35,893 bases of DNA. Source: Sphingomonas sp. (lineage in GTDB: Bacteria > Pseudomonadota > Alphaproteobacteria > Sphingomonadales > Sphingomonadaceae). Location: NCBI GenBank assembly GCA_035714425.1, contig DASTLZ010000160.1, forward strand, positions 1-35,893, given 5' to 3'. Below the pieces are notes generated by a model. The model saw nothing but the letters and a program-made list of their open reading frames with translations. It had not been told where the DNA came from and searched no databases. Shown piece by piece: positions 1,147 through 26,782 of the stretch (position 1 is its first letter; every line of letters begins with the position of its first letter). Position numbers and translations under genes: made by a program.

Positions 1147-1297
1147 TCCTCCCCGAGCTTGCTCGGGGAGGGGGACCGCCGCCGCCCTTGCGGCGGTGGT
1201 GGAGGGGCCGTCGCTGCAAGCGACGGTGGCCCGCCATGCCCCTCCACCACCAGCCTTCGGCTGGCGGTCCCCCTCCCCAAGCTTTGCTTGGGGAGGA
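1147..1297. repeat. Family A palindromic element, intergenic copy (151 bp)
   Basis: Terminal inverted repeats TCCTCCCC / GGGGAGGA; terminal hairpins CTCCCCGAGC-TT-GCTCGGGGAG and CTCCCCAAGC-TTT-GCTTGGGGAG; inner arms GGGGACCG/CGGTCCCC and GGTGGTGGAGGGG/CCCCTCCACCACC. Same layout at 4363 and 26249. Confidence 0.92.
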
Positions 1298-1304
1298 ATA
1301 GGAC

Positions 1305-6257
<4,953 letters not shown>

Positions 6258-20321: not shown

Positions 20322-20499
20322 GTATCTGAGCGGCACCCCCCGCCACACAGCCCACCACACCATCTACCGCCCCGGCGAAGGCCGGGGCCCGGCTGGGAAA
20401 GCCTCCGTAACGACGGGCCGTCCGTCACCGTTCCGCTCCCCCGACTGGTCTCCGGCCTTCGCCGGGGTGGTGGCGCGCGCTGAGGGCCCGCCCCCATGA
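20302..20499 (+). CDS. 65-codon ORF, probably the detached N-terminus of the DUF448 gene, containing a family B repeat
   Basis: GGAGGA at 20291-20296 lies 5 nt before the ATG; the frame reads through the palindrome; the stop overlaps the ATG at 20496 (ATGA). Confidence 0.5.
   Translation: MRTLPDEYLSGTPRHTAHHTIYRPGEGRGPAGKASVTTGRPSPFRSPDWSPAFAGVVARAEGPPP
20366..20471. repeat. Family B palindromic element (inverted pair of REP-like hairpins)
   Basis: Left end ACCGCCCCGGCGAAGGCCGGGG; right end CCGGCCTTCGCCGGGGTGGT, its reverse complement with one mismatch over 20 nt. Confidence 0.85.
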
Positions 20500-25208: not shown

Positions 25209-25787
25209 ATGGCCAAGCTCTATTTCTACTACGCCTCGATGAACGCCGGCAAATCCACGACGCTGCTGCAAGCCGATTTCAATTATCGCGAGCGGGGGAT
25301 GCGCACGATGCTGTTCACCGCGGCGCTCGACGATCGCTTCGCTGCCGGGACGATCGCGTCGCGCATCGGGCTGGAGGCGCCTGCGTCGATGTTCGATCGC
25401 ACCACCCAGATCGCGGCTCTCGTGGAGGCCGAACACGCCCGCGCGCCGCTGGCCTGCGTGCTCGTCGACGAAGCGCAATTTCTGACCGCGGATCAAGTTG
25501 ACCAATTGGCCCACATCGCCGACGTCACCGGCATCCCCGTACTCACCTACGGCTTGCGCACCGATTTCGTCGGTGCCTTGTTCGAAGGCTCGGCGCGGCT
25601 GCTCGCGCTTGCCGATGCGCTGGTCGAGATCAAGTCGGTCTGCGATTGCGGGCGCAAGGCGACGATGAACCTGCGCATCGATGGCGAGGGCCGTCCCGTC
25701 CTCCAGGGCCACCAGACCGAAATCGGCGGCAACGATCGCTATGTCGCGCTGTGCCGCCGCCACTTCACCGCCGCGTTGGCTAGCTGA
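25209..25787 (+). CDS. tdk: Thymidine kinase
   Basis: MAKLYFYYASMNAGKST, VDEAQFL, YGLRTDF, CDCGRKA, YVALCRRH. Confidence 0.97.
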   Translation: MAKLYFYYASMNAGKSTTLLQADFNYRERGMRTMLFTAALDDRFAAGTIASRIGLEAPASMFDRTTQIAALVEAEHARAPLACVLVDEAQFLTADQVDQLAHIADVTGIPVLTYGLRTDFVGALFEGSARLLALADALVEIKSVCDCGRKATMNLRIDGEGRPVLQGHQTEIGGNDRYVALCRRHFTAALAS

Positions 25788-26782
25788 TGCACGGCTGGAT
25801 CATCCTCGACAAGCCGCTTGGCCTCGGCTCGACGCAAGGGGTGTCCGCGGTCAAGCGCGCCCTGCGGGCTGGCGGTTATGGCAAGGCGAAGGTCGGCCAC
25901 GGCGGTACGCTCGATCCGCTGGCGACGGGCGTGCTGCCGATCGCGATCGGCGAAGCGACCAAGCTGGCGGGGCGGCTGCTCGACAGCGACAAGGTGTATG
26001 ATTTCACCATCCGCTTCGGTGAACAGACCGACACGCTGGACGGGGAGGGGGCGGTGATCGCCACGTCCACCGTCCGCCCCACCGCCGCCGCGGTCGAGGC
26101 CGTGCTTGCGCGCTTCACCGGCCCGATCGCACAAGTGCCACCGGCCTATTCCGCGCTGAAGGTCGACGGCGCCCGGGCCTACGACCTCGCCCGCGCTGGC
26201 GAAGACGTGATCCTCGCCAGCCGCGACGTGACCATCCACCAACTCCATTCCTTCCCGGCGCGGGGAGGGGGGCTGCCGCGCAGCGGTGGTGGAGGGGGCG
26301 CCACCACCATTGCTCCGCTCGGGGAAGCCCCCCTCCACCAGCCTGCGGCCGGTCCCCCTCCCCGTGCCGGGGAGGAATTGTCCCAGACCACCCTGACCGC
26401 GCACGTCTCGAAAGGCACCTATATCCGCAGTCTGGCGCGCGACATCGCGCTCGCGCTGGGCACAGTCGGGCATGTCGTCATGCTGCGCCGGACGAAGGCC
26501 GGGCCGTTCGATCTGCGTCACGCGATATCGCTGGACAAGCTGGCGGATCTGGGGCAGGCGCACGCGCTTGAAGGCATTACCCTGCCTCTGAGGGCGGGGC
26601 TGGACGACATCCCGGCTCTATCCCTCACCCCCGATCAGGCAGGGGCGCTCCGCCAGGGGCGTGCACTGACCGGGATCGCCGCGCAAGACGGCCTGACCTT
26701 CGCGATGCTCGACGACGTCCCCGTGGCGCTGGTCGAGGTGATCGCGGGCATGGTCCGGGTCGAACGCGGCTTCAACCTGTGA
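25787..26782 (+). CDS. truB: tRNA pseudouridine(55) synthase, with a repeat-derived internal insertion
   Basis: [48 protein letters not shown]. Confidence 0.98.
26249..26376. repeat. Family A palindromic element in frame within truB (128 bp)
   Basis: TCCTTCCC...GGGGAGGGGG...GGTGGTGGAGGGGG...CCCCCTCCACCA...CGGTCCCCCTCCCC...GGGGAGGA. Confidence 0.92.

What the first reader, a model, noticed from the sequence alone, without database searches (positions are those of the whole stretch)
26249..26376. Palindromic DNA element translated in frame inside TruB
Seen: between RDVTIHQL and [14 protein letters not shown] the protein carries [44 protein letters not shown]. The DNA is a 128-bp copy of the element that is non-coding at 1147-1297; the frame is intact and all TruB motifs are present on both sides. 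Established: in canonical TruB only a short turn separates these two beta strands before SKGTY, and Rickettsia palindromic elements (RPE) are the precedent for repeats translated inside housekeeping proteins. Inference: this lineage has its own selfish element that adds peptide loops to core enzymes at tolerant surface sites.
Basis: partly seen in the sequence, partly recalled or inferred. Interest (0 to 1): 0.88.

Follow-up and report, generated by a model that had tools for sequence, protein, structure and literature searches.

The report
Nuclease-linked hairpin translated inside TruB
A 133-base hairpin repeat sits in frame in a loop of the tRNA enzyme TruB of a Sphingomonas-like bacterium; its two halves match the ends of a small nuclease (DUF559) cassette that likely spreads it, and related bacteria fill, swap and lose such repeats in the same loop.

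Summary
Observation confirmed. A hairpin at 26247-26379 (z -9.9) lies in frame in an intact truB, in a predicted disordered loop. Among 36 congeners the loop is empty in 16, holds this family in 16, other repeats in 3 and is cut off in 1. The TruB backbone stays under purifying selection. The element's halves are the terminal arms of DUF559 nuclease cassettes. One arm matches 49 of 50 nt; arm type follows the nuclease tree (7 changes, shuffles 33 or more); 46 of 50 nucleases picked by protein alone carry these arms, against 0 of 30 controls. Mobilisation by that nuclease is inferred, not shown, and none was found in this 60%-complete bin. The behaviour is known: Rickettsia RPE-1 and CGTC REPs in sphingomonad truB (PMC3733652). 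This is not an RPE and is not lineage-specific. The scan reported truB hairpins and DUF559 arms before, on other DNA.

The parts
25787..26782 (+). truB, tRNA pseudouridine-55 synthase, intact (K9, D43, Y71, SKGTY 208-212)
   Evidence: only truB in the bin
26247..26379 (.). gene-less hairpin element ('A-type'), read in frame as TruB residues 154-198
26247..26298 (+). left arm: terminal hairpin, purine tract, inner variable hairpin, GGTGGAGGGG; 43-49 matches over 52-64 columns to six of seven DUF559 cassettes (38 of 54 to the seventh)
26299..26327 (+). variable core, at the position where the full cassette holds the DUF559 gene
26328..26379 (+). right arm ending GGGGAGGA; 49 of 50 nt identical to a DUF559 cassette arm (L179); read as G-E-E, the frame of the nuclease's own tail
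1147..1299 (.). second copy between glgC and glgA; its GGAGGA end lies 7 nt before the glgA ATG
4361..4491 (.). third copy, in frame between the GTG start of glgX (4348, overlapping the pgm stop) and the conserved part of GlgX

Best explanation
The insert is a gene-less copy of the two hairpin arms that bracket one clade of DUF559 (Vsr-like) nuclease genes in sphingomonads; it is likely spread in trans by that nuclease and likely translated as a tolerated, disordered 44-residue loop of an intact TruB. Shown: the two halves equal the cassette arms; the frame is intact; the loop lies between two beta strands; relatives have empty, filled, swapped and collapsed alleles. Inferred: (1) the nuclease recognises the folded arm and nicks or cuts, and host repair copies the arm pair into a new site, replacing a few host codons without a target duplication. 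(2) Only in-frame landings in permissive loops survive. Between genes the ends can supply a stop (T+GA) upstream and a GGAGGA ribosome site downstream. (3) Each arm begins with its own small palindrome, so recombination between the ends can collapse the element to one hairpin or flip it, and the neutral loop is then re-invaded by this or unrelated repeats. The peptide is probably a passenger.
For: Right arm 49/50 nt identical to L179's arm. In 70 DUF559 genes of the genus, the 7 with A arms form one clade (95/82), sister to B arms (100/100 together); arm type needs 7 changes against a minimum of 33 in 500 shuffles, with 63 of 70 typed. Prediction test: 46 of 50 nucleases found by protein similarity alone in other genera carry these arms, against 0 of 30 top Pfam-scoring DUF559. 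Genomes with the nuclease clade have a median of 15 further arms (n=21), those without a median of 2 (n=15), p=8e-7 uncorrected for kinship. Whole cassettes occur as 92-98% identical triplicates in G261 and G030. A-type truB alleles are not one clade (AU p=9e-59). Sister alleles at dS 0.10-0.21 carry different families or none. Backbone dN/dS is 0.06-0.24 with an insert and 0.11-0.21 without; insert dN is close to dS in the six closest pairs. No frameshift or stop was seen in the loop in any truB locus that spans it. pLDDT <50 at 158-190 between strands 146-155 and 200-207; TM 0.80 to 1K8W. E-x-D-G-x-x-H is present in 6 of 7 A-clade proteins, with the His one residue off in the seventh.
Against: No DUF559 gene was found in this bin (60% complete). 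Arms and nuclease are physically linked, so concordant trees show co-inheritance, not recognition. The link between nuclease presence and an A/B insert in truB (14/21 vs 2/14, Fisher p=0.005) is not significant on 5 independent pairs (median p 0.25). The recent triplicate cassettes in G030 and G261 share flanking sequence beyond their arms, which looks like a second repeat that could be the real vehicle. The window's insert is no closer to its own genome's copies (best 0.62) than to other genomes' (0.71-0.72); only G010 clearly shows the own-genome pattern. Filled and empty states keep some phylogenetic signal (21 changes against a shuffle minimum of 23). A Caulobacter DUF559 protein is interpreted as a mismatch-repair enzyme (PMC12907096). 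No transcript or peptide evidence.
Confidence: 0.6

Rival explanations
1. One old insertion in the ancestor of many sphingomonads. Its ends are anchored at the locus and its interior is rewritten by gene conversion, inversion and deletion through host recombination, with little fresh nuclease-driven insertion.
For: The right terminus is in the same frame in 50 of 50 A/B alleles, and in most of them 39 nt before SKGTY, across both arm types. Inserts are inherited vertically over short distances (similarity about 0.9 at backbone p-distance <0.12). Collapsed scars (L029, L072; a scar at pntA, L348) and a contig with truB 3' sequence on both sides of the element (L439, 42/48 identical) fit deletion and flipping.
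Against: Unrelated families (CGTC REP dimers; P, Q, R, S arms) occupy the same loop and share no homology for conversion. Short 24-residue alleles are scattered through the tree. LeuS, GlyS and GlgX show the same patchwork. The 50-allele set is partly enriched by a protein-ranked search.
Confidence: 0.2
2. The DUF559 gene is a passenger or a repair enzyme. The arms are moved by something else (an HUH or IS transposase, an outer repeat, or replication template switching), and the nuclease merely sits inside them.
For: Triplicated cassettes share flanks beyond the arms. VsrA of Caulobacter is SOS-induced and proposed as a very-short-patch repair enzyme (PMC12907096, passages). No nuclease in this bin.
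Against: Each nuclease clade keeps its own arm type across loci and genomes, arm abundance follows nuclease presence, and the nuclease frame runs into the arm.
Confidence: 0.15
3. The hairpin or the peptide is selected for a host function, such as mRNA stability, coupling in the truB-rpsO-pnp region, or a protein contact.
For: Insert DNA diverges more slowly (0.03-0.12) than synonymous sites of the same truB pairs (0.20-0.50). The inner hairpins covary among the bin's copies.
Against: 16 of 36 congeners lack an insert. The peptides are unrelated between alleles. Sense-strand G-U does not exceed A-C (32 vs 34). No terminator-like site at the element.
Confidence: 0.05

Closest known systems
Rickettsia palindromic elements (RPE-1; as described in PMC10969869, PMC2229807 and PMC3733652, passages read; the primary papers were not seen)
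   Same: 105-150 bp palindrome with open frames, in frame in housekeeping genes; RPE-1 also interrupts truB of R. conorii.
   Different: No NCBIfam or Pfam match in any of six frames; G/C-rich; sphingomonad host; has a candidate autonomous partner; polymorphic among close species.
CGTC REPs in sphingomonad genes (PMC3733652, section 15 and supplementary file 3)
   Same: Listed inside TruB of S. alaskensis (residues 169-177) and E. litoralis (164-190). The same peptides occur in this loop in L065 and L482, so the site is already known to take repeats.
   Different: Different family: 0 of 55 copies end in CGTC or GTAG; about 130 bp against 20-40 bp units.
REPIN/RAYT (REPtrons; PMC3733652 passages and own knowledge)
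   Same: A single nuclease gene flanked by inverted hairpins, plus dispersed gene-less doublets of those hairpins.
   Different: The partner is a PD-(D/E)xK, Vsr-like DUF559 protein (3HRL E 1.6e-15; weak 3R3P E 0.19), not an HUH tyrosine transposase; no GTAG tag.
BoxC/PIT/TM-ECO triplex repeat (PMC4666352, passages)
   Same: Purine-tract hairpin. A relaxed version of the printed consensus matches 12 of 12 DUF559 loci with P-type arms, so it looks like a sister arm type.
   Different: 0 of 55 A-type copies match the consensus. The paper reports the E. coli motif as always intergenic and not tied to mobile elements.
Caulobacter CIR1-4 (only through the review PMC2229807; the primary paper PMC166474 is not held)
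   Same: About 110-bp alphaproteobacterial repeats with a two-part inverted organisation.
   Different: CIRs are described as GANTC-bearing, intergenic and closed in all frames. Here GANTC is in 9 of 55 copies, every copy has 4-6 open frames, and the fold is end to end.

Membership tests
RPE | palindromic 100-150 bp repeat, multi-copy | tested here: met
RPE | in-frame insertion in conserved genes | tested here: met
RPE | sequence or peptide homology to RPE families; Rickettsia host | tested here: not met
   no NCBIfam or Pfam hit at cut-off in six frames (that NCBIfam holds RPE models is recalled, not shown by a call); relatives are Sphingomonas; 1 of 120 class-level genomes matched at E<=1e-8, with at most 7 candidates scored in each
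RPE | insert present in the expressed protein | not testable with these tools
   RNA run X21 held only arm-matching pieces, nothing bridging a junction
CGTC/GTAG REP | terminal CGTC or GTAG tag | tested here: not met
   0 of 55
REPIN/RAYT | repeat flanks a cognate nuclease gene | tested here: met
REPIN/RAYT | partner is an HUH tyrosine transposase | tested here: not met
   partner is DUF559
classical MITE | terminal inverted repeats shared with an autonomous element | tested here: met
classical MITE | target-site duplication | tested here: not met
   0 of 48 copies with a 5-nt duplication, 0.54 expected; shorter ones not tested; LeuS and GlyS alleles lack 4-6 host codons
CIR | conserved GANTC site | tested here: not met
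   9 of 55
CIR | intergenic only, stops in all frames | tested here: not met
   all 55 have 4-6 open frames
CIR | sequence similarity to the CIR1-4 consensus | not testable with these tools
   primary paper not held
BoxC/PIT | TM-ECO consensus | tested here: not met
   0 of 55
TruB | catalytic Asp, motif I Lys, Tyr, SKGTY and fold | tested here: met
   the roles of these residues are from own knowledge

The most novel reading that the evidence does not exclude
DUF559 nucleases and their structured arms form an unrecognised class of bacterial mobile element, a PD-(D/E)xK counterpart of REPIN/RAYT. Each nuclease clade propagates its own arm type, BoxC/PIT being one, and the arms carry stop, ribosome-site and open-frame signals that let them land in operons and protein loops harmlessly. 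The sphingomonad TruB, LeuS, GlyS and GlgX loops are safe harbours where these families replace one another within species-level distances.
Probability: 0.45. Interest if true: 0.82.

Novelty: new variant of a known kind. Interest (0 to 1): 0.52.

Why it matters
How RPE-like, BoxC/PIT and similar palindromes move is an open question; the papers read name no enzyme for the CGTC REPs or for BoxC. Here a defined nuclease clade, its cognate arms and culturable Sphingomonas carrying empty, filled and swapped alleles make the question directly testable. It also bears on reading solitary DUF559 genes as repair enzymes, and it warns annotators that Pro/Gly-rich loops and N-terminal extensions in sphingomonad proteins can be repeat DNA. 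The insertion in truB, taken alone, is a known kind of event.

Tried and rejected
Assembly artefact: rejected (relatives carry similar inserts). Pseudogene: rejected. RNA-level excision: unlikely, because the frame is kept in every spanning allele while dispersed copies fall in all three length classes (18/26/11); not tested directly. Rfam: only sub-threshold miRNA-hairpin matches. Sense-strand RNA selection: G-U 32 vs A-C 34 in 34 thinned inserts. Stem extension by rewriting of flanks: only position 2 (and weakly 1) covaries in 47 dispersed copies, none in 34 truB inserts, although GC3 drops to 0.55 from 0.83 in the four codons left of A inserts. A fixed GGAGG target motif: empty GlyS alleles lack it. 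The idea that the exit frame is inherited from the nuclease tail: weakened, since B-type tails mostly use another frame yet B inserts in truB exit as G-E-E/D. The figure of 10 of 11 included two BchB inserts found with a same-frame peptide query; I dropped them (8 of 9). The first 30 DUF559 loci had no A arms. The peptide search gave only 3 hits. Runs X5-X24 have small shares and were not used; X21 gave no junction. The independent-pairs test was not significant. Ten literature searches (the terms included DUF559 with 'inverted repeats' and with 'endonuclease' and 'repeat') showed no listing that describes this family or a DUF559-arm link. Most hits were seen as listings only, and subscription papers, the primary RPE and CIR papers and bioRxiv supplements were out of reach.

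Full report
Observation. The window encodes an intact truB at 25787-26782, the only one in the bin. Bases 26247-26379 form a near-perfect hairpin (z -9.88) read as residues 154-198. E. coli TruB has four residues at this point. An AlphaFold2 model built from 47 orthologues has pLDDT <50 at 158-190, between strands 146-155 and 200-207, and matches 1K8W with TM 0.80. From my own knowledge of the fold, the second strand runs about nine residues before SKGTY, so the insert is at its far end; I could not measure distances. Named relatives are Sphingomonas.

Copies in the bin. An HMM built from seven copies finds 15 in 1.96 Mb (the seven match by construction). Six are in frame in genes: truB, leuS, a 2-oxoacid dehydrogenase E2, murD (half element), dnaE2 (half element; the upstream side runs off the contig) and the N-terminus of glgX. 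Five end 4-8 nt before a likely start codon, with GGAGGA placed like a ribosome site: glgA, ddl, ubiB, acpS and a nitrite/sulfite reductase. Four are otherwise intergenic. In other genomes, internal in-frame copies are rarer: 4 of 48 and 2 of 47, by a codon-score rule that can miss some. ATG is enriched 3-10 nt after element ends (22 in 8 positions against 35 in 31, p=0.001), though short operon spacers could give part of this.

The truB site. In an unselected draw of 36 congeners, 16 alleles are short. Sixteen carry this family or its sister subtype (11 A, two of them cut by contig ends; 4 B; 1 A plus CGTC). Two carry CGTC REPs, one another sequence, and one is cut before the site. Other genera of the family show the same mix. 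On a tree of 108 truB genes with the loop removed, the states need 41 changes and filled against empty needs 21 (shuffle minimum 23, mean 32.6); monophyly of A alleles is rejected. Pairs at dS 0.10-0.21 differ in occupant. Backbone dN/dS is alike with and without an insert. Insert dN is close to dS in close pairs, yet insert DNA changes more slowly than synonymous sites. No spanning allele has a stop or frameshift in the loop. LeuS (6 of 30 loci with a long insert), GlyS-beta (12 of the 15 loci that my parser spanned, of 30 fetched) and GlgX (3 filled) are similar hotspots. There the element stands in place of 4-6 host codons, and no 5-nt duplication was found in 48 dispersed copies.

The parent. 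DUF559 genes occur in 57 of 61 genomes of the genus draw. The best Pfam scorers have other arms, but lower scorers are bracketed by the two halves of this element; one arm is 49/50 identical to the truB insert's right arm. Among 70 DUF559 proteins, arm type follows the protein tree (7 changes, shuffle minimum 33; 7 untyped; the bootstrap had not fully settled). As a prediction test, 46 of 50 nucleases retrieved by protein alone from other genera carry these arms, against 0 of 30 controls. Arm counts are far higher in genomes with the clade, but kin are not independent and the pairs test has no power. At the pntA junction, 8 of 31 loci hold a full cassette, 2 a left arm with the gene, 1 a single-hairpin scar, 10 no arm and 10 were not parsed. 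Near-identical triplicate cassettes in G261 and G030 show recent movement, but they share flanks beyond the arms. Database proteins have DUF559 embedded in PurL, DeoC and PriA, bordered by Pro/Gly-rich tracts that resemble other arm types. No DUF559 was found in this 60%-complete bin.

An unexplained bias. In 8 of 9 genes found by DNA search, the element exits as GGG GAG GAx, G-E-E/D (p=0.001; 7 of 8 without truB, p=0.003; the exception is a truncated copy in ligD). All 7 A-clade nuclease ORFs read through the right arm in that same frame. At truB it holds in 50 of 50 A/B alleles, a set partly enriched by a protein-ranked search, and in all 15 alleles of the unselected draw that include the exit. 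Selection on the peptide, anchoring at the locus and codon-phased targeting all remain open.

Mechanism. Shown: arm identity, clade concordance, frame integrity, purifying selection and allele turnover. Inferred: nuclease recognition of the folded arm, copy-in by repair, collapse or flip through the small terminal palindromes, and translation of the loop. I put the whole account at 0.6 and its descriptive part at about 0.9.

Comparison. It works like an RPE in its effect on proteins and like a REPIN in its anatomy, but it fails the membership tests for RPE, CGTC/GTAG REP, RAYT-linked REPIN, CIR and BoxC. PMC3733652 (passages, section 15 and supplementary file 3 read) already lists CGTC REPs in TruB of two sphingomonads and recalls RPE-1 in R. 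conorii truB. PMC10969869, PMC2229807, PMC3184786, PMC4666352, PMC12907096 and PMC4741004 were read as passages only. PMC166474 was not available. My ten searches showed no paper on this family or on a DUF559-arm link. Earlier notes of this scan report truB hairpins and DUF559-flanking arms in other lineages; I had named DUF559 as a candidate before reading them and tested it here on my own loci.

Verdict. Real; a new variant of a known kind. Interest 0.52. The value lies in the testable nuclease-arm pairing and the hotspot series, not in the truB insertion alone.

Noticed in passing
window 4348-4491; L364, L365, L379: glgX carries the element between its GTG start (overlapping the pgm stop) and the conserved region in three genomes. 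A second glg operon in this bin (C107) holds the empty allele.
   Followed up: yes
window 20366-20471: Inverted pair of short GC hairpins (arms 20366-20402 and 20435-20471) in the nusA-infB region; looks like a REP dimer of another family.
   Followed up: no
L439 (G011:C34) 1-230: The element has truB 3' sequence on both sides in inverted orientation (42 of 48 identical). Possibly two strains with the element flipped, or a chimeric contig.
   Followed up: partly
L417-L419 (G261), L445-L447 (G030): Three near-identical full DUF559 cassettes per genome, each nested in a shared outer inverted sequence that may be a second mobile repeat.
   Followed up: partly
DUF559 loci with P-type arms (e.g. 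L126, L133, L148): 12 of 12 match a relaxed BoxC/PIT consensus, which links that repeat to one DUF559 clade.
   Followed up: partly
P0002: A protochlorophyllide reductase B-type protein carries two in-frame A-type inserts.
   Followed up: partly
30 copies with co-oriented flanks in L193-L265: On the sense strand, A-C mismatches exceed G-U between the arms (30 vs 10, p=0.002). May reflect a shared arm asymmetry; unexplained.
   Followed up: no
truB codons 150-153 in A alleles: GC3 falls to 0.55 against 0.83 in empty alleles; partly the element's A/T-rich outer end.
   Followed up: partly
L344 (G000:C30, pntA junction): In this bin the junction that often holds the cassette has 485 nt of other coding-like sequence and no arm; not identified.
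   Followed up: no
L086: A record titled as a Bordetella MAG has a truB nested among Sphingomonas sequences; likely a mis-binned contig.
   Followed up: no
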